Virus record (IMG/VR): IMGVR_UViG_2925891887_000001
Length of the DNA stretch: 64,000 nt
Direction: 5' to 3' (one strand)
Origin: a virus
Lineage: Duplodnaviria > Heunggongvirae > Uroviricota > Caudoviricetes
The stretch's first letter is position 1. Each line of letters opens with the position of its first letter. Shown piece after piece: positions 42,871 through 61,751 of this stretch. The notes beneath the pieces were generated by a model. The model had not been told where the DNA came from and made no database searches. It saw only the letters and a list, made by a program, of their open reading frames with translations. The translations under genes were made by a program, and so were the position numbers.

Positions 42871-44979
42871 ATGTCTAAAAAACGTTCCATCAAAGAGGTT
42901 CAGGACTTCCGTGACAGTGTAAAACGAGTAGTCGCTCTCCTTTCAGGTAAAAACATCCCTGTTGCAGAACGAGGGGACGACGCTTATGTACGCTATAACG
43001 ATGATGGAGAGCCAATTCTCGTAAACATCCCATCAATCCCGGATAACGCAACACCGGCATTGATGAATGCTGTGCGCGGATTTCTCGATCATGAGGTTGC
43101 TCACATTTTGTTTACCGATATTCGTGTGTCCAACAAAATGAGAGAAAAAGGACGCGTTCCTTCCTGGTCGCTATGGAATGCCTTAGAAGACGTGTTCATC
43201 GAGCGAAAAATGGGTCAGGTCTTTAACGGAACAAGACGTAATCTGATGGCAACTCAGCGCCTTATAATCGAAAAAGTCTTTAAACCAAAGGCTTCAGAGG
43301 CTATTGCTTATTGTGGCAAAGATCAGCGCGCGCTTTTTCTAAACTTCTTTCTCTGTCCGGTTGTAAGAGCCTGGGATGGCCAAGCACCGTTCGTAGATTT
43401 CATGGATGAACATTGGCCTGTCATTGAGAAACCAATTTCATTATTAAAAGAACATGGTATCGATGTGGCCGTGCGTAACATGTCTTGCACCGAGGATTGT
43501 GTAAAGGTGGCTGCGACCATAGCTAAGATCCTCAAAGACACTGAAAGTGAAAGCAAAGGTAAGGAGTCAGCTCCGGGAAAAACTTCCGATCCTTCAGACG
43601 CTGACCAGACGGATGCCTCTGGAGAAAACAATGAAGACAACGAAGATCATGAGACTCCCTCAGTGTTAGATAATCACAAATCTATCAAATCAGAATCACA
43701 TAGTAAGTACAAACATGATAATAACAACAGTGATGATTCAGATAATTCTGAATCATCAGAAACAATATTCGATGATACAGAAAATGATAAAGAGGTATCA
43801 GATTCTGATGCTTCTGATAACGCGGCGTCAGAATCATTAACCGCTGACCACGAAAAAAGAAAAACGACAGAAGACGGCTCTTCAGATATCCCAACTCCGT
43901 CAAAAATGAGTCTGGAAGAGGCTTTAGAGGAGCTGGATAGCATAGAAGATGAAGTCGGAGGCATGACAGAAGATGCTCTATCCGAAACGATTAAAAGCGA
44001 GTTAACAGAAAGCTCGAAAAGCGAATACAGGCCATACAATCGCTCATACGACTTCATCGGCTCGATTGATCAGGCAGAAGCCCATATCAAACGGCTTATT
44101 AAAACATTCTCCGATATTGATTTGGGAGGATATCCAATCAGCCGCTATCGCATCGTTCCTGAAGGCAACCAGCTCTTCGACAAATATATTGAAAAGCATC
44201 TTTCGTCAGGTGTTTCGTCGACGCTGGCAAAAGACCTGGAGCGAGCAATAGCAAGCAGAAACAGAGTTCAGTTTATACCGGGCCAGCGTCGGGGGCGCAT
44301 TCATGGTTCTAGTATCTACAGATTAGCAATGAATGATGCTCGCGTGTTTCGTAAAAAAGAAGAATCTAAAGCCGTTAACGCCTGTGTTCAACAAGTGATT
44401 GATTTATCAGGTTCAATGAGTGGTATAACGATTAAACTGGCTCTTGCAAGTGCATATACCATCGCCGATGCCCTTGATCGAATAAATGTTCCCAACATTA
44501 TCACTGGCTTCACTACATTTGGTAGTCATATGGCGGCAGGAGAACTTAAGGCTGTCAAGTATGAGTTCTCTCGCTTTGAATCTTTAATGCTACCTATCAT
44601 CAAAAATTGGAATGAAAAGGTAAATTCTCGCGAAGTTCGCTCACGTATGGGGTGCGTAGGCTACACATTCCCACTTCTTAATAACGTGGATGGTGAAAGC
44701 ATAGCCAGCCTTGCATCGTTATTTTCCGGTCGCATGGAGGACAGGAAGATCATGCTTGTTCTGAGTGATGGCGCGCCGTGGGCTGTTGGGAGAGGTTTTG
44801 ACGCTCATTTGCGTTCAGTTGCGAAGCAAATTGAAACGCAGACTGATATTGATTTGATGGCAATTGGCATCATGACTGACGCACCGGAGAGATTTTACTC
44901 AAATCATGCCCTGGTAACGAGCGTTGATAGTCTTGGTTCATCTGTAGTTACTGAACTATCTCGTATCATTTTAAAGTGA
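42871..44979 (+). CDS. von Willebrand factor A (vWA) domain protein with acidic Asp/Glu/Ser-rich linker (CobT-like)
   Basis: MIDAS motif DLSGSMSG in the C-terminal part; long acidic low-complexity segment; paired with the downstream AAA+ gene. Confidence 0.65.
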   Translation: MSKKRSIKEVQDFRDSVKRVVALLSGKNIPVAERGDDAYVRYNDDGEPILVNIPSIPDNATPALMNAVRGFLDHEVAHILFTDIRVSNKMREKGRVPSWSLWNALEDVFIERKMGQVFNGTRRNLMATQRLIIEKVFKPKASEAIAYCGKDQRALFLNFFLCPVVRAWDGQAPFVDFMDEHWPVIEKPISLLKEHGIDVAVRNMSCTEDCVKVAATIAKILKDTESESKGKESAPGKTSDPSDADQTDASGENNEDNEDHETPSVLDNHKSIKSESHSKYKHDNNNSDDSDNSESSETIFDDTENDKEVSDSDASDNAASESLTADHEKRKTTEDGSSDIPTPSKMSLEEALEELDSIEDEVGGMTEDALSETIKSELTESSKSEYRPYNRSYDFIGSIDQAEAHIKRLIKTFSDIDLGGYPISRYRIVPEGNQLFDKYIEKHLSSGVSSTLAKDLERAIASRNRVQFIPGQRRGRIHGSSIYRLAMNDARVFRKKEESKAVNACVQQVIDLSGSMSGITIKLALASAYTIADALDRINVPNIITGFTTFGSHMAAGELKAVKYEFSRFESLMLPIIKNWNEKVNSREVRSRMGCVGYTFPLLNNVDGESIASLASLFSGRMEDRKIMLVLSDGAPWAVGRGFDAHLRSVAKQIETQTDIDLMAIGIMTDAPERFYSNHALVTSVDSLGSSVVTELSRIILK

Positions 44980-45074
44980 ACAAAACAGCCTTAACGATAA
45001 GTAACCACTTACGATATATAATGATATATTTATATAAGAAGTTGAACGCTCATTAGAGAACAAAGGAAAAACGC

Positions 45075-46310
45075 ATGACGACTACTGCACTGCAAAATGA
45101 AAAAAATCCTTCTGATTACCTTGTTTGCAAGTGGTGCGGCAAATCATTTCACTATTTTAAGTCCCATGTAGCCAATGGTAATTGCGAGGGCATTCCTGAG
45201 TCAGTAAAAGATGCCGATCCTGACACCGTACTGAAAATGTACACAACGCAGTTTCCAGATGAACCAACGCTATCGAAAAAGGCACTTGATGCAATTCAAG
45301 CTAAACGTGCCGAGCAAAAAAGCGAAATGGCCAAATCTTCTGGCTTGACCAGTAGCCCTGGCTACACAGGCACAGTTGAGTACAAGACAGATCTGGTCGC
45401 AGCTCACGAACTGCTAAACGTAACAGTGGAAGAACTCGGAACAAAACGTGGGACGCCGCTCATGGTTAGCGTCAACGTCAATACGCCGTATCCAGAGTTC
45501 GTTCCCGAAGTGAAGAAAGGCTACGTATATGGCGACTTCGAACTGATCAAAGATATTTTCATGATGCTTGAACTTGGCATACCTGGCTATTTGTGGGGTC
45601 ATGCAGGAACAGGCAAATCGTCATTGCCTACACAGCTATGTGCTTTGCTCAATCGTCCGTTGATCCGTGCCCAACATACAGCATCAATGGAAGAGGCACA
45701 TGTTACGGGGCAAATTCTGGCGCGTGATGGCTCTACGTATTTCGAACCTGGCTTGCTTGCGCTCGCAATGAAGCATGGCTGGGTTTACCTCGCGGATGAA
45801 TACGACTTTGCGTTTCCACAAATTCTTGGCGTGTATCAGCCAGTGCTGGAAGGTGAAGCGTTGGTCATCAAAGAGGCAACTCCAGAATGGCGTCGCATTA
45901 CTCCGCATGAACGGTTTGCTTTCATTGGCACTGGCAACACGAACGGATCTGGTGATGAAACCGGCTTGTACCAGGGTACAAACATCCAGAACGCCGCGAA
46001 CTTTTCGCGTTTTGGCATCGTTTCGAATGTGAAATACATGAGCAAAGACGCAGAGATCAACATGTTGACAAATGCAGGCATCGTGGATGAATACGCTGAA
46101 AAGATGGTTAAGTTTGCCGGTATCGTTCGCGATGGATACGAAGAACACCTCATTAGTCAGCCAATTGGCCCTCGTGAACTTTTGTTGTCGGCCAAGATTG
46201 GAATGATGCGAGGCGACTTTGTGACAGGTATTGAGCGTTCTTTCATTAACAAACTCCCTTCAGCTTCTGCACAAGCGGCTCGTGAAGTTGTTCAAAAAAT
46301 ATTTGGTTAA
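45075..46310 (+). CDS. MoxR/CobS-like AAA+ ATPase
   Basis: Walker A GHAGTGKSSL, Walker B-like VYLADEYD; 411 aa. Confidence 0.65.
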   Translation: MTTTALQNEKNPSDYLVCKWCGKSFHYFKSHVANGNCEGIPESVKDADPDTVLKMYTTQFPDEPTLSKKALDAIQAKRAEQKSEMAKSSGLTSSPGYTGTVEYKTDLVAAHELLNVTVEELGTKRGTPLMVSVNVNTPYPEFVPEVKKGYVYGDFELIKDIFMMLELGIPGYLWGHAGTGKSSLPTQLCALLNRPLIRAQHTASMEEAHVTGQILARDGSTYFEPGLLALAMKHGWVYLADEYDFAFPQILGVYQPVLEGEALVIKEATPEWRRITPHERFAFIGTGNTNGSGDETGLYQGTNIQNAANFSRFGIVSNVKYMSKDAEINMLTNAGIVDEYAEKMVKFAGIVRDGYEEHLISQPIGPRELLLSAKIGMMRGDFVTGIERSFINKLPSASAQAAREVVQKIFG

Positions 46311-57337: not shown

Positions 57338-57763
57338 ATGACAGCTATTAAGAAACTCTACGATGCCGCAAACGTGGCTCTGGATGTTATTGATGATGAA
57401 GCAGCAAAAGGCTTTCCTGAACCTGATTGGGCGCATCAGCTACGAAACGCTATCGCAGAAATGACCCCACCAGATCCAACCCCCGAGGAGACAGACTGGC
57501 AGCGATTCATCCGTATGTACGCTCAGGAAATAGGTCCAACGCCAACGGCAGAGCAGGCAATGCTGCTGAAATACTTCAAAGAGGCGGGAGAGGATTTACC
57601 AATTGATGACTCAGCATATTGGTTCCACTGCGCATGGCGTAAGTATGACGTGATATTCACACAAGGCATGGGAAGCAAAGATATGGTTGTGTGGCATCTA
57701 CTCCATATAGACACAGCCGTTGACAGAGTTATTGAACAGTTTTTCCCTAAACAAGAAGATTGA
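57338..57763 (+). CDS. hypothetical protein
   Basis: 141-aa ORF preceded by the AATAATTTGTTT palindrome. Confidence 0.5.
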   Translation: MTAIKKLYDAANVALDVIDDEAAKGFPEPDWAHQLRNAIAEMTPPDPTPEETDWQRFIRMYAQEIGPTPTAEQAMLLKYFKEAGEDLPIDDSAYWFHCAWRKYDVIFTQGMGSKDMVVWHLLHIDTAVDRVIEQFFPKQED

Positions 57764-57818
57764 TCGCCTATTCATAACTAACAAAATAAGTAAACACTAA
57801 CCACAAAAGGAAAAACAC

Positions 57819-58094
57819 ATGAGAGTTTTAGTTCGAATCGTTACCAGCACTGTCTATGACGTGTTTCCGCTTTTTATGGTCAAAGTCGATGGCCTTAACG
57901 ATGAAGAAACTGACGCGCTGATCCAGCGTACTCTTGTTGAATATACAGGTCATGACGCTGATTCAGTGATGGTTGATGACGATGGTGTTTGTTGGCATAA
58001 CGGCAACTGTTGGTACGTAGAAGAGACTCAACAAATCAGTAATGAAGATGCTGAACATCTTGAGCGTATTTTAAGCATCAGCACTTTTGAGTGA
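57819..58094 (+). CDS. hypothetical protein
   Basis: 91-aa acidic ORF with the conserved AAAGGAAAAACAC leader. Confidence 0.5.
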   Translation: MRVLVRIVTSTVYDVFPLFMVKVDGLNDEETDALIQRTLVEYTGHDADSVMVDDDGVCWHNGNCWYVEETQQISNEDAEHLERILSISTFE

Positions 58095-58309
58095 GTTTAC
58101 AGTAAAGTTTATATAAGTTAGTATCTACCTATCATGAAGATTTTTATTGAATACTTGTTACTCATCGTTTCAATAGCTTTTGTCATCGACTGCATTTTCA
58201 CTGGTGTCATTCGTAAAGTCTTTTCCCCGGTGCACGACGTAGTCATAAACGCTTTGGCTATCGTGCTCGTATTTAATTCAGCATTTGATGTAATCAAAGA
58301 GGTGGCAGC

Positions 58310-58645
58310 ATGAAGACCATCCCATTCGCGCTGTTGTTTCTTTCTTCGATCGTTGTGGCCGACACCACTGTTTATCAGTGTGAAATGTCTGTAGCCGACG
58401 TTAAGAATGGCGCTCTTACCGACGTCATAAAAGCACCATATGGAGCGATGGTCGTAGACAGCGGCGACCAGTTCTATGTTGTGCGTGACGATCGAGTGTT
58501 GTCATCCCCATATCTCACAAATCGTAATGGCAAATTAACCGGCGTCGGAGAAGACCACTTCGTATACAACAAATACAAGGGCTTCTATGGCGTTCACGCT
58601 TCTCAGCAAAGCTACCTTTTCGATGACTGCAAGGAGGTTGGGTAA
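58310..58645 (+). CDS. secreted protein with signal peptide, function unknown
   Basis: 111 aa, N-terminal signal peptide (MKTIPFALLFLSSIVVA). Confidence 0.5.
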   Translation: MKTIPFALLFLSSIVVADTTVYQCEMSVADVKNGALTDVIKAPYGAMVVDSGDQFYVVRDDRVLSSPYLTNRNGKLTGVGEDHFVYNKYKGFYGVHASQQSYLFDDCKEVG

Positions 58646-58857
58646 TGGCATTAACACTGGCAGGTCTGGAAATCGAGAAAACAAGCGGCTACTGGCGTGC
58701 TAAGGGTTTCAAGCAGCCTGGCATTCTTGAGCGTCTGGAACGTGAAGATGGGTATATCGTCCACCAGCGGCGTGAATGGCGTATGTACGATCCAGAAACA
58801 GGAAAACTGACTACAAAAGCCGGAACACTTTGGGGTCTGTTAAAGAAAATACACTAA
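58645..58857 (+). CDS. hypothetical small protein
   Basis: 70-aa ORF with ATGA overlap; followed by hairpin 58867..58888. Confidence 0.45.
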   Translation: MALTLAGLEIEKTSGYWRAKGFKQPGILERLEREDGYIVHQRREWRMYDPETGKLTTKAGTLWGLLKKIH

Positions 58858-58904
58858 ATGCAAACTGACTGCGGCACGTTCCGCAGTCATATTTCATAGT
58901 CGTC

Positions 58905-59437
58905 ACCGCTGACAGCATACACAATCAACTACCGCTGATAGCATATCGAGAGTCTATCTCACCGCTCACAGCATACTTTACTCGATTCTTTACCGCTGAC
59001 AGCATACTTAAGAAATTGCATGAATAATGTGTCCCGGTATGGGTATAACCAGAACAAAATTACCGCTGGCAGCATACGAATGTCTGACATATACCATTAA
59101 TTACCGCTGATAGCATATCCAAACAAAAATTCCTCAATAACACACCGCTGACAGCATACGTTCTATCAGGGAGTAGCAGGCAATAAATGCCTTTCACTAC
59201 AAGCAACCAGCGCAATAGCAATAGAATGTTAGTGAGCGCAAACCTATATGGAATGCACTCTTCGAGGTTAGTAACCACTGGGGAGGTATGACAGAGCATT
59301 GAGTGGTGATAGATGATTTACCGCTCACAGCATACGTTCATCTCACTATACCGCTGGTAGCATATCTTTAACCGTTCACAGCAAACTTTTCAGAAAAATA
59401 GCCGCTGATAGCATACATTTCACCGCTGACAGCATAT
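58905..59437 (+). repeat. iteron array downstream of rep: about 12 direct copies of a 16-bp unit (consensus ACCGCTGACAGCATAC), incA-like
   Basis: Copies read at 58905, 58931, 58961, 58992, 59062, 59103, 59144, 59320, 59350, 59371 (degenerate), 59401, 59422, all in the same orientation. Confidence 0.85.
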
Positions 59438-60531
59438 CAAAGCAGTTTGAGACTATTGGAAAGGATCTCAATCATCTTGATATTTTCAGGCGTCAAATTC
59501 TGCGAAAGTTCGGTTATCTTGTTGATAATGTTCTGTTTGGCATCAATTTCCCCAGCTTTCTCATCTGGTTTTTTGGGTTCGATGTCTTCAGGTTTTGGCG
59601 GTGCGACTTTGAGTTTTGGATTGCGGCTGTGAATCTGGATATAGATCGACCGCCCACGCTTAATCTCGCTGTATTCGAGATAGCCCAAATCTTGGAGAGC
59701 TTTTAAGCCGTTACGTATAGTCTGATTCTGCGAGCTGACATTCCTGCTACTCAAATTGAGTCGCGCACGCAATCGAGCAAGCGATACCGGCGCAGGCTTG
59801 GTTGGAAGACTTTCGATGAAGGTGTACAGAGCCTGTGCTGTTTCTTTGCGTGGTAGCTTATTGATAACCTTTAACTGCAAAAGAACCTTATGGTCAAAGC
59901 GATATAGTTCGGCCAGCTTCGGTTCTGCATAGAACACCACCGTATCTTTCTGCTCGTTGTAGTCCACGCTATTGATGAGGTGCACCATCAGAAGCGAGAT
60001 CTTGTTAGAGCCGTCGACGTTCTTTTCTTCATACGTTCTCTGGAAAGACAGAGTTGTACGCATGATCTTCAAAAGACTGTTTGTAAGCCGGTCGCGGAGT
60101 GTTTTGCGGATCTGTGACGATGGATAGCCACAAAACTTAGCAAATTTCGTGATGCTTAACTCGACACGACCGTTAGGTTCGCCGTATTCTGCCAGCGAAC
60201 GCACAACGCCCACCCACGTTTTGAAATCATGATCCATGTCGAGACGAGGACCGGTTATCTTGATATCGGAATAGCCTTCAGAACGGGCTACTTCGAGCTG
60301 GACAAGCTCCTTTGAAGCATCGATCTCATTTGGCTTGTTACGTTTACTGTATTTTGTTCCCTTAAGCGTGGGGACGAACAACCCCAGTCGCATCAACGCA
60401 ATTGGTTGGACTGTATTGTTGCTATTAGGGACAAGTTCCCCTGTGTACAATTCAAGGGAACCTTCTTCAAAGTTGTCGATGTTATCTTCTACTTCTTTGT
60501 TATTTTTACCTTTTTTATTTTTTGTGGACAT
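59437..60531 (-). CDS. replication initiator (iteron-binding Rep protein) candidate
   Basis: 364-aa ORF flanked on both sides by the same 16-bp iterons; basic N-terminus; start MSTKNKKG at the DnaA-box-like TGTGGACA pair; assignment from replicon architecture, not from a protein motif. Confidence 0.6.
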   Translation of the reverse strand: MSTKNKKGKNNKEVEDNIDNFEEGSLELYTGELVPNSNNTVQPIALMRLGLFVPTLKGTKYSKRNKPNEIDASKELVQLEVARSEGYSDIKITGPRLDMDHDFKTWVGVVRSLAEYGEPNGRVELSITKFAKFCGYPSSQIRKTLRDRLTNSLLKIMRTTLSFQRTYEEKNVDGSNKISLLMVHLINSVDYNEQKDTVVFYAEPKLAELYRFDHKVLLQLKVINKLPRKETAQALYTFIESLPTKPAPVSLARLRARLNLSSRNVSSQNQTIRNGLKALQDLGYLEYSEIKRGRSIYIQIHSRNPKLKVAPPKPEDIEPKKPDEKAGEIDAKQNIINKITELSQNLTPENIKMIEILSNSLKLL

Positions 60532-60551
60532 GTGGACACCTTTGTCATTCA

Positions 60552-60653
60552 ACCGCTGACAGCATACTTGATTTGCCGCTGACAGAATACCAAAAACAGT
60601 TGGCAGCATACGGTGAACCGCTGACAGACTATCAATTACCGCTGACAGCATAC
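60552..60653 (+). repeat. iteron array upstream of rep (origin-proximal, about 5 copies at roughly 21-bp spacing)
   Basis: Copies at 60552, 60575, 60596 (degenerate), 60617, 60638 of the same 16-bp unit. Confidence 0.8.
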
Positions 60654-60693
60654 ATGAACATGACTTCAGACCAGTCGTGGCGCGGCTTACAGC

Positions 60694-60766
60694 GATCGGG
60701 GATCTTATTTGATCTATATAAGGATCTATCTATGGATCTCTTTATTAGGATCTATCCTGTGGATAT
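60694..60766. promoter_or_regulatory. origin-associated AT-rich region with six GATC sites and a DnaA-box-like 9-mer (TGTGGATAT)
   Basis: GATC at 60694, 60701, 60711, 60723, 60735, 60749 within GGATCT-type repeats; TGTGGATAT at 60758-60766. Confidence 0.6.
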
Positions 60767-60852
60767 GTGAATAATTAAAACAGGCATTTACTACCTTCGG
60801 CGCACCTGGTGGGTTATCGTTGCCTCGGCTAACAATCACAGAAAAATGACAT

Positions 60853-61497
60853 ATGGATCTAAAACGCACGCGCTGGGTTCGTCGTCTTGAAGACGGCTCC
60901 TACACTATCGAATCAAATTCCAACCTGAATAAGCAGAAGTTGCTTTGTGACATCTGCGGTATAGCGGCGAAGTGCCCGATCTACGAAACCAGAATTAAAC
61001 TTGATAAGGCTGGTGTGAATTTTCATTTAAACAGTTGCATCAGGTACGTTCCATTACTCGCATTTCGTAAACCGATCATCGGATTGGATGCTCCCTACTT
61101 CAACACACTCCGTTCAGGTGTGACGTGGCGAGATCGTTTATCACCAGACAAGCTGATTTGCCTCGTATCCGCAGACACAGGGAAAATCATCCGTTTTGGG
61201 AAAGTAGACAAGGTTTACTCAGGCCCAGTAGACGAAATGTTGCGGAAACACAGCCGGTTTAATCATCTCTGTATGGGTGGTGAGAAAATCGAGAAGGTAG
61301 AAGAAGTGATCCGCAAATCCTACGGACACTTTCTGACCAAAGATAGCCTGCTCACCGCAATCTACATCAGACATGTAAAACGTGAGTTCGACCTCGAATA
61401 CCACAGCGAAGAAGAGCTTAACCTTGTTGACCCACGTCCAAAAGCTGGCGTCATAAGCATAAACGCAGCGCGTAAAAAGCCCACTGACGCGCTGTAA
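60853..61497 (+). CDS. hypothetical protein
   Basis: 214-aa ORF downstream of the origin region. Confidence 0.5.
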   Translation: MDLKRTRWVRRLEDGSYTIESNSNLNKQKLLCDICGIAAKCPIYETRIKLDKAGVNFHLNSCIRYVPLLAFRKPIIGLDAPYFNTLRSGVTWRDRLSPDKLICLVSADTGKIIRFGKVDKVYSGPVDEMLRKHSRFNHLCMGGEKIEKVEEVIRKSYGHFLTKDSLLTAIYIRHVKREFDLEYHSEEELNLVDPRPKAGVISINAARKKPTDAL

Positions 61498-61751
61498 CCC
61501 TCCAGATCGTATATTGGCGTAGATAGAATCTACGCCCCCTCAAAATAGCTCTCATAGCGTTCTACAGTGATCCTGTCTTATTTTTAGTCATACAGACAAG
61601 CAAAGTTGCGCCACAACAAATAGGTATATACTTACTTATAAATTTTGTATATTAAGGCGCTCGTTTCATTCCTAACATACCGTTATGCATAGTTGTTTAC
61701 CTTCTCATTGCTCTTAGAATTTGTATCAAAATAATCACAAAGGAAAAACAC

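What the first reader, a model, noticed from the sequence alone, without database searches (positions are those of the whole stretch)
60694..60766. Cluster of six GATC sites on about a one-helical-turn register next to the iterons
GATC sits within repeated GGATCT-type units spaced 10-14 bp apart in an AT-rich tract, the pattern expected for SeqA/Dam-controlled origins (as in oriC and P1 oriR). This density is much higher than anywhere else I scanned in the window.
Basis: partly seen in the sequence, partly recalled or inferred. Interest (0 to 1): 0.55.

Follow-up and report, generated by a model that had tools for sequence, protein, structure and literature searches.

The report
P1-type plasmid origin GATC core
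The six clustered GATC sites are real and form the strand-opening, methylation-sensitive core of a phage-P1-type plasmid replication origin in an SSU5-like E. coli phage-plasmid, a well-understood kind of element rather than something new.

Summary
Six GATC sites lie within 59 bp (60694-60752). Nowhere else in the 64-kb window has more than 2 per 60 bp, and only 1 of 2000 dinucleotide shuffles reaches 6.

The window is an SSU5-like E. coli phage-plasmid, 99.8% identical to p09EL50. The cluster sits in a complete P1-oriR-type replicon:
- two abutting DnaA boxes;
- five AGATCC-type heptamers in the least stable duplex of the locus;
- CGATCG;
- a GC-rich spacer;
- five iterons;
- a rep gene 43.5% identical to P1 RepA;
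- twelve more iterons.

The non-coding core aligns to annotated P1 oriR at 75% over 145 bp (E 3e-21). The P1 record marks the equivalent GATCs as Dam sites next to the DnaA site.

All 76 Rep-homologue loci with enough upstream sequence, drawn from 80 loci in Enterobacterales genomes, carry the same cluster of 4-7 GATC, with a modal spacing of 11 bp. Their iterons and neighbouring genes differ.

I rate it a new member of a known kind, of low interest.

Side observations:
- Relative to SSU5, the Rep/iteron cassette was swapped exactly at the cluster boundary.
- Other lineages carry a second, decayed core.
- A close relative encodes a Dam-family methyltransferase.

The parts
58906..59437 (+). Twelve copies of the 15-bp iteron CCGCTGACAGCATAC (0-3 mismatches) in three groups downstream of rep. 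This is the incA-like copy-control array; the last copy abuts the rep stop codon, as in P1.
   Evidence: P1 layout for comparison (incA iteron 9 starts at the repA stop).
59437..60531 (-). rep gene, 364 aa from the ATG at 60531. An iteron-binding initiator homologous to P1/P7 RepA.
   Evidence: ORF. (Pfam Rep3_N, 3.9e-9). (43.5% identity to P1/P7 RepA, E 2e-64; 48% to SSU5 RepA; 85% to Klebsiella phage-plasmids). (alignment).
60523..60538 (-). Two tandem TGTCCACA 8-mers (rep orientation) overlapping the rep start codon. They are weak DnaA-box-like sites (2 mismatches each to TTATCCACA), placed like P1's second DnaA-box array.
   Evidence: tandem repeat TGTGGACA x2. Direct reading. P1's two DnaA-box arrays are described in PMC4980987. 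Function inferred.
60553..60653 (+). Five origin iterons at 21-23 bp spacing (incC-like), between the origin core and rep.
   Evidence: P1 counterpart.
60654..60698 (.). GC-rich spacer (43% AT) ending in CGATCG (60693-60698, the sixth GATC). It aligns with the P1 spacer (GCCGCGCCACG.CTGG shared).
60699..60753 (-). Five heptamer units in a 70% AT tract. In rep orientation they read AGATCCC, AGATCAA, AGATCCT, AGATCCA, AGATCCT (GGATCT-type on the + strand). GATC at 60701, 60711, 60723, 60735 and 60749. Proposed DNA-unwinding element and Dam/SeqA target.
   Evidence: Least stable 60-bp duplex within 58.5-62 kb starts at 60706. Aligned to P1 Dam sites. Conserved in the family.
60758..60774 (-). Two abutting DnaA boxes, ATATCCACA (60758-60766) and TTATTCACA (60766-60774), each with 1 mismatch to TTATCCACA, 4 bp from the first heptamer.
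   Evidence: Same position as the annotated P1 DnaA site. At least one DnaA-box-like 9-mer lies within 40 bp in 66 of 73 relatives.

Best explanation
The GATC cluster is the core of the plasmid-prophage replication origin of an SSU5-like phage-plasmid, and it is homologous to the core of P1 oriR.

Proposed mechanism:
- Host DnaA binds the two strong boxes at 60758-60774.
- The plasmid's RepA-like initiator binds the five iterons at 60553-60653.
- Together they open the intervening AT-rich tract of five AGATCC-type heptamers (60699-60753), where the helicase is loaded.
- The GATCs are methylated by Dam. The fully methylated state is the initiation-competent one.
- After the fork passes, the closely spaced hemimethylated GATCs, about one turn apart, are bound cooperatively by SeqA. 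This sequesters the origin and blocks immediate re-initiation.
- Copy number is set separately, by RepA autoregulation and by pairing with the twelve downstream iterons (58906-59437).

Shown here: the anatomy, the homology to P1 oriR and RepA, the low duplex stability, and family-wide conservation of the GATCs. Inferred from P1, RepFIB and oriC work: opening at the heptamers, the methylation requirement and SeqA sequestration.
For: 1. The window is a phage-plasmid: 99.8% identical to p09EL50 and 99.3% to phage PhiR41_1.
2. Rep is homologous to P1/P7 RepA (43.5% identity, E 2e-64; Rep3_N).
3. The order of parts matches the curated P1 record: DnaA site, Dam sites 5 to 1, five incC iterons, repA, incA iterons.
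4. The non-coding core aligns to P1 oriR at 75% over 145 bp, E 3e-21 (alignment). This includes 'ggatAGATCC' next to the boxes and 'AGATCCC-GATCG...GCCGCGCCACG.CTGG' at the spacer.
5. Among 80 Rep-homologue loci from Enterobacterales genomes, all 76 with at least 800 bp of upstream sequence have 4-7 GATC within 70 bp upstream of rep, and 75 of 76 have at least 5. Elsewhere in the same loci the maximum is mostly 2-3.
6. 66 of 73 distinct cores keep five consecutive GATC heptamers. The unit consensus is A-GATC-C with variable flanks, and the modal spacing is 11 bp.
7. The heptamer tract is the least stable 60-bp duplex of the locus and lies at the 98th percentile of the window.
8. The neighbouring 214-aa ORF is present in only 6 of 82 loci, so the cluster travels with rep.
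9. SeqA prefers hemimethylated GATC pairs on roughly the same helical face (PMC2691817).
10. In P1, DnaA can start opening and RepA greatly helps (PMC5043065).
11. Papers on P1 and REPI (RepFIB) methylation dependence appear in the reference list seen.
Against: - No function was tested here. Dam dependence and SeqA binding rest on homology.
- Spacing in this window (10, 12, 12, 14 bp) is looser than a strict 10.5-bp register.
- The two DnaA boxes each carry one mismatch.
- No sigma-70 consensus promoter for rep was found by the strict scan.
- The shuffle statistic overstates independence, because the sites lie in a short tandem repeat.
- Some relatives, including P1 itself, function with one heptamer lacking GATC, so not every GATC is indispensable.
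Confidence: 0.85

Rival explanations
1. The heptamers act mainly as an unwinding element and as single-strand ATP-DnaA-box-like sites (AGATCC against the E. coli DUE 6-mer AGATCT). GATC is conserved for DnaA or Rep contacts or for melting, and Dam/SeqA control is secondary or absent in this replicon.
For: - The unit consensus A-GATC-C extends beyond GATC: A at -1 in 78% and C at +4 in 84% of units.
- The 6-mer ssATP-DnaA box AGATCT lies in the E. coli DUE (PMC4285127).
- The heptamers begin 4 bp from strong DnaA boxes.
- The tract is the least stable duplex locally.
Against: - This reading is compatible with, rather than opposed to, Dam/SeqA control.
- In P1 the same sites are annotated Dam sites, and methylation dependence was reported for P1 and REPI (titles listed).
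- The extra CGATCG, which lies outside the heptamer pattern, is present in 43 of 73 cores. That points to selection on GATC as such.
Confidence: 0.1
2. The cluster is a Dam-sensitive regulatory region for the divergent 214-aa ORF (60853-61497, +), about 100 bp away.
For: - It lies upstream of that ORF.
- A further GATC overlaps the ORF's start (60856).
Against: - The ORF has a homologue in only 6 of 82 related loci, while the cluster is present in all 76 testable loci.
- In P1 the upstream neighbour is a different gene in the other orientation.
- No promoter-like site was found in 60350-60950.
Confidence: 0.03
3. It is a methylation-gated packaging (pac-like) site or a restriction-related target of the phage, or merely a neutral tandem duplication.
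For: - From my own knowledge, the P1 pac site also contains clustered GATC hexamers.
- The units form a 12-bp-period tandem repeat.
Against: - It is homologous to oriR, not to pac.
- It is always found between DnaA boxes and iterons upstream of rep, including in plasmids and contigs without the phage neighbour gene.
- GATC is retained while the flanking bases vary. In the second, rep-proximal cores of other lineages GATC decays to GAACC, GACCC or GTTCC.
Confidence: 0.02

Closest known systems
Bacteriophage P1 plasmid origin oriR (with repA, incC and incA), and P7
   Same: - Same order of parts: two tandem DnaA boxes, GATC heptamers, GC-rich spacer, five iterons, rep, downstream iteron array abutting the rep stop.
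- Rep is 43.5% identical.
- The origin core is 75% identical over 145 bp.
- The innermost GATC spacings (10 and 7 bp) are identical to P1's.

   Different: - The iteron sequence is unrelated (CCGCTGACAGCATAC against P1's GATGTGTGCTGGAGGGAAA).
- There are 12 downstream iterons rather than 9.
- All five heptamers carry GATC, whereas P1 has one degenerate unit (AGGTCCA), giving 6 rather than 5 GATCs.
- Rep has N- and C-terminal extensions.
- The carrier is an SSU5-like siphovirus-type phage-plasmid, not a P1-like one.
RepFIB / REPI replicons of IncF plasmids (P307, pColV-K30) and the SSU5 / pHCM2 / pMT1 replicons
   Same: Same RepA family, and the same conserved GATC-heptamer core upstream of rep in every relative examined. 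Methylation control of REPI is reported in the paper listed.
   Different: - SSU5, pMT1, Pantoea and Rahnella lineages carry two tandem cores, the rep-proximal one with decayed GATCs. This window has a single core.
- Rep is only about 48-55% identical, and the iterons differ.
E. coli oriC (GATC-rich 13-mer DUE, SeqA sequestration)
   Same: A GATC-rich, AT-rich unwinding region adjacent to DnaA boxes, with GATCs embedded in AGATC-type motifs. Sequestration logic is presumed.
   Different: The initiator is a plasmid Rep acting with DnaA at iterons. There are no 13-mers and no array of low-affinity DnaA sites, and there is no sequence homology.
Vibrio cholerae chromosome 2 origin (RctB)
   Same: An iteron origin whose function depends on Dam and which is sequestered by SeqA (PMC6090056).
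   Different: There the GATCs lie inside the iterons and methylation governs initiator binding. Here the iterons contain no GATC, and the sites lie in the unwinding tract.

Membership tests
P1 oriR-type (P1 RepA / RepFIB family) iteron origin | Initiator homologous to P1 RepA | tested here: met
   tblastn gives 43.5% identity over 76% of the protein, E 2e-64, to P1 and P7 RepA. Pfam Rep3_N 3.9e-9. Alignment.
P1 oriR-type (P1 RepA / RepFIB family) iteron origin | Five direct iterons between the origin core and rep (incC), at about two-turn spacing | tested here: met
   Five copies at 60553, 60576, 60597, 60618 and 60639. P1 layout.
P1 oriR-type (P1 RepA / RepFIB family) iteron origin | Second iteron array downstream of rep (incA control locus) | tested here: met
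   Twelve copies at 58906-59437, the last abutting the rep stop.
P1 oriR-type (P1 RepA / RepFIB family) iteron origin | Tandem DnaA boxes at the outer edge of the core | tested here: met
   ATATCCACA and TTATTCACA at 60758-60774, one mismatch each. They align with the annotated P1 DnaA site. Binding was not tested.
P1 oriR-type (P1 RepA / RepFIB family) iteron origin | Array of GATC-containing heptamers in an AT-rich tract between the DnaA boxes and a GC-rich spacer | tested here: met
   Five AGATC(C/A)N units plus CGATCG. 75% identity to the P1 oriR core over 145 bp, E 3e-21.
P1 oriR-type (P1 RepA / RepFIB family) iteron origin | Autonomous replication from this fragment, dependent on Rep and DnaA | not testable with these tools
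   Needs a mini-replicon experiment.
Dam/SeqA-controlled origins (functional class) | GATCs methylated by Dam, with methylation required for or modulating initiation | not testable with these tools
   Inferred from P1 and REPI (references listed). Needs dam hosts or methylation calling.
Dam/SeqA-controlled origins (functional class) | Several GATCs close enough and in phase for cooperative SeqA binding | tested here: met
   Six sites spaced 7-14 bp apart. Family mode is 11 bp. SeqA prefers sites on about the same helical face (PMC2691817). Actual binding was not tested.
oriC-type chromosomal origin | DnaA as sole initiator, with an array of high- and low-affinity boxes and 13-mer DUE repeats | tested here: not met
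   A Rep gene and iterons are present, and there are only two strong DnaA boxes. It works like oriC only in its GATC-rich DUE.

The most novel reading that the evidence does not exclude
The host-factor core (DnaA boxes plus GATC heptamers) may be a constant docking module that also serves as the recombination joint for swapping Rep/iteron specificity cassettes between phage-plasmids. Homology with SSU5 stops exactly at 60693. The Dam-family methyltransferase carried by near-identical relatives (PF05869 in p09EL50) may methylate these heptamers, so that the element licenses or de-sequesters its own origin independently of host Dam, for example during lytic growth or in Dam-poor hosts.
Probability: 0.2. 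Interest if true: 0.45.

Novelty: new member of a known kind. Interest (0 to 1): 0.2.

Why it matters
It fixes the position and likely control logic of the plasmid-state origin in a widespread group of E. coli, Shigella and Klebsiella phage-plasmids. PLSDB holds 478 records with a partial match and 66 with a full match. The one searchable paper I found on the Klebsiella sister group (IncpKPHS1) lists only downstream iterons and says its RepA has no known domain superfamily.

The family-wide survey shows that the GATC-heptamer/DnaA-box core is the most conserved part of P1-RepA/RepFIB-type replicons, while Rep and the iterons diverge. That is useful for replicon annotation and for predicting that these elements depend on Dam+/SeqA+ hosts. 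It does not change what is already understood about this kind of origin.

Tried and rejected
- Promoter and terminator consensus scan of 60350-60950: nothing found, so the rep promoter is not located.
- Rfam at E up to 1 over 58700-61700: no RNA family.
- Tried to read the primary P1 methylation papers (PMC206955, PMC553761, PMC208038) and a 2026 preprint on SSU5-like phage-plasmid copy number. None is held. The experimental P1 facts therefore rest on titles in reference lists, the curated GenBank record, reviews and my own knowledge.
- A MAFFT column-wise conservation profile of 71 cores was blurred by gap placement. I replaced it with a slot analysis anchored on the invariant innermost heptamer.
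- Looked in the window for the relative's Dam-family methyltransferase: absent, so self-methylation cannot be assessed from this window.
- Considered and rejected: a window-wide GATC bias (255 against 256 expected); a promoter role for the neighbouring ORF; a pac-site reading (homology is to oriR).

Full report
**Observation**

The window has GATC at 60694, 60701, 60711, 60723, 60735 and 60749.
- That is six sites in 59 bp, with start-to-start spacings of 7, 10, 12, 12 and 14 bp.
- Four sites are GGATCT, one is TGATCT and one is CGATCG.
- The last five lie in a 70% AT tract (60701-60757). The first lies at the end of a GC-rich spacer (43% AT).
- GATC is neither enriched nor depleted overall: 255 observed against 256 expected.
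- Outside this locus no 60-bp stretch has more than 2 GATC, and no 75-bp stretch more than 3.
- Only 1 of 2000 dinucleotide-preserving shuffles reached 6 in 60 bp.

The sites belong to a short 12-bp-period repeat, so they are not independent. The real case for selection on GATC comes from the comparative data below.

**What the window is**

The 2.3 kb around the cluster is 99.8% identical to plasmid p09EL50 of E. coli O104:H4 and many other roughly 110-kb non-mobilizable plasmids. It is 99.3% identical to Escherichia phage PhiR41_1. The relatives encode capsid, portal, terminase and tail fibre genes together with dnaE, nrdAB and partition genes. This is an SSU5-like phage-plasmid.

**Anatomy**

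Read in the orientation of the rep gene (minus strand), the locus runs as follows:
- Two abutting DnaA boxes, TTATTCACA and ATATCCACA, at 60774-60758, one mismatch each.
- Four bases later, five heptamers: AGATCCT, AGATCCA, AGATCCT, AGATCAA, AGATCCC (60753-60699).
- CGATCG, then a GC-rich spacer running down to 60654.
- Five iterons of CCGCTGACAGCATAC type at 21-23 bp spacing (60653-60553).
- Two TGTCCACA repeats overlapping the start codon (60538-60523).
- The rep gene (60531-59437, 364 aa).
- Twelve more iterons (59437-58906), the first of which abuts the rep stop codon.

Rep has the Rep3_N winged-helix domain. The heptamer tract is the least stable 60-bp duplex anywhere between 58.5 and 62 kb, and ranks at the 98th percentile of the whole window.

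**Homology to P1 oriR**

Rep is 43.5% identical to RepA of P1 and P7 (E 2e-64), 48% to SSU5 RepA, and 85% to the Rep of Klebsiella phage-plasmids.

The curated P1 record (AF234172) annotates oriR in this order:
- a DnaA binding site;
- Dam methylation sites 5 to 1;
- five incC iterons containing the repA promoter;
- repA;
- nine incA iterons starting at the repA stop.

The two sequences can be read side by side:
- P1: TTATCCACA TTATCCACT ggat AGATCCA .. AGGTCCA .. AGATCCC .. AGATCCA .. AGATCCC TGATCG ttgcagGCCGCGCCACGtCTGG.
- Window: TTATTCACA TATCCACA ggat AGATCCT .. AGATCCA .. AGATCCT .. AGATCAA .. AGATCCC CGATCG ctgtaaGCCGCGCCACGaCTGG.

blastn aligns the window core to P1 oriR at 75% identity over 145 bp, E 3e-21 (multiple alignment). 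The non-coding core is thus better conserved than the initiator protein, and the iterons are unrelated in sequence. This is what one expects if the core is read by host factors (DnaA, Dam, SeqA) while Rep and the iterons co-evolve.

**Family-wide conservation**

A scan of one genome per species with a Rep alignment returned 80 loci. Most come from Enterobacterales genera such as Klebsiella, Citrobacter, Enterobacter, Kluyvera, Pantoea, Rahnella, Xenorhabdus and Yersinia pestis, with Rep about 50% identical.
- In all 76 loci with at least 800 bp of upstream sequence, the region upstream of rep contains 4-7 GATC within 70 bp. 75 of the 76 have at least 5. The rest of each locus mostly reaches only 2-3.
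- Of 73 distinct cores (including the window, P1 and SSU5), 66 keep five consecutive GATC heptamers at 10-15 bp spacing.
- Six cores have four GATC heptamers and a 21-23 bp gap in place of the fifth; the unit in that gap is degenerate (P1, Klebsiella sp., four Xenorhabdus). One has an extra GATC.
- The unit consensus is A-GATC-C (A in 78%, C in 84%), with variable flanks.
- 43 of 73 cores have the additional GATC 7-8 bp inside the innermost heptamer.
- 66 of 73 have at least one DnaA-box-like 9-mer within 40 bp.
- The modal GATC spacing is 11 bp, in 145 of 330 intervals.
- The 214-aa ORF that diverges from the cluster in this window has a homologue in only 6 of 82 loci. The cluster therefore belongs to the replicon, not to the neighbouring gene.

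**Mechanism**

What is shown is the anatomy, the homology, the low duplex stability and the conservation. What follows from established work on the homologues:
- In P1, DnaA can start opening and RepA greatly stimulates it (review PMC5043065).
- P1 has DnaA-box arrays on both sides of the origin (PMC4980987).
[quoted passage not shown] The RepFIB-type REPI replicon is also methylation-controlled (titles in the reference list of PMC2865523; details from my own knowledge).
- From my own knowledge (Brendler, Abeles and Austin 1995), the protein that binds the hemimethylated P1 origin core is SeqA.
- SeqA dimers prefer hemimethylated GATC pairs on about the same face of the helix (PMC2691817).
- The heptamers also resemble the single-strand ATP-DnaA 6-mer AGATCT of the E. 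coli unwinding element (PMC4285127).

My best account: DnaA at the two boxes and Rep at the five iterons open the methylated heptamer tract. After replication, the hemimethylated heptamers are sequestered by SeqA. The downstream iterons set copy number by titration and pairing. Confidence is about 0.85 for 'origin core of a P1-type replicon' and somewhat lower for each inferred regulatory step.

**Rivals**

- A role purely as an unwinding or DnaA single-strand element, without Dam/SeqA control, is possible but is not really exclusive of the main account.
- A Dam-regulated promoter for the neighbouring ORF is disfavoured.
- A pac-like site or a neutral repeat is disfavoured by the homology and the conservation.

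**Comparison and novelty**

This is a member of the P1 oriR / RepFIB kind of origin. Every sequence-level defining feature that could be tested was met; the functional ones cannot be tested here.
- It differs from P1 in iteron sequence, in number of downstream iterons (12 against 9), in having all five heptamers intact, and in its carrier phage.
- It resembles oriC only in having a GATC-rich unwinding region next to DnaA boxes.
- It differs from Vibrio chromosome 2, where the GATCs lie inside the iterons.
- The only searchable paper touching the sister replicon (IncpKPHS1, Klebsiella) notes four downstream iterons and no domain assignment, and does not mention GATC or DnaA boxes.

The description of this particular origin therefore appears to be new, but the kind is textbook. 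Interest is low (0.2).

**Side observations**

- Against SSU5, backbone homology covers 57350-58855 and 60693-61487 only. The 1.8-kb cassette of iterons, rep, iterons and spacer has been replaced, with its right-hand joint exactly at the GATC cluster.
- SSU5, pMT1 of Yersinia pestis, Pantoea and Rahnella replicons carry two tandem cores. The rep-proximal one has heptamers decayed to AGAACC, AGACCC or AGTTCC.
- p09EL50 encodes a PF05869 Dam-family methyltransferase outside the region covered by this window.
- RefSeq annotates Rep as 404 aa starting inside the iteron array. The 364-aa start at 60531 fits the homologues better.

Noticed in passing
window 58856-60692, against SSU5 locus L004: Backbone homology with SSU5 (73-77% DNA identity) covers 57350-58855 and 60693-61487. 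It is interrupted over the whole iterons-rep-iterons-spacer cassette, where only weak patches inside rep align. The right-hand joint falls exactly at the first GATC. This looks like a swap of the replication-specificity cassette between phage-plasmid backbones.
   Followed up: partly
L004 2150-2400 (SSU5); L083 2160-2400 (Y. pestis pMT1); L024 2190-2400 (Pantoea); L063 2190-2400 (Rahnella): These lineages have two tandem origin modules upstream of rep. The distal one has 5-6 intact GATC heptamers plus iterons. The rep-proximal one has several heptamers that have lost GATC (AGAACCA, AGACCCA, AGTTCC) but keeps its own iteron array. The window's replicon has only one module.
   Followed up: partly
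p09EL50 record 44738-45331 (L085), outside the window: The 99.8%-identical relative encodes a 197-aa Dam-family N6-adenine methyltransferase (Pfam PF05869, 5.4e-38). The window has no homologue of it. The methyltransferase could methylate the origin GATCs independently of host Dam; its specificity is unknown.
   Followed up: partly
window 60532-60651: RefSeq/PGAP annotates the Rep of near-identical plasmids as 404 aa, starting at the position equivalent to 60651, inside the iteron array. The ATG at 60531 (364 aa, as annotated in phage PhiR41_1) fits the N-termini of the SSU5 and P1 RepA homologues and leaves the iterons non-coding.
   Followed up: partly
window 60523-60538: A perfect tandem TGTGGACA x2 overlaps the rep start codon. 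In rep orientation these are two 2-mismatch DnaA-box-like sites, at the position of P1's second DnaA-box array. This suggests DnaA may also affect rep expression.
   Followed up: no
L006, L026, L031, L079: Contigs labelled Chryseobacterium sp., Paenochrobactrum MAG, Rikenellaceae MAG and Geobacteraceae MAG carry this Enterobacterales-type replicon, nearly identical to the Lelliottia, Kluyvera and Citrobacter versions. This is probably contamination or mis-binning in the public assemblies.
   Followed up: no
window 59160-59320: The twelve downstream iterons fall into three groups (4, 3 and 5 copies). A roughly 160-bp iteron-free stretch lies between the second and third groups; its role was not examined.
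   Followed up: no
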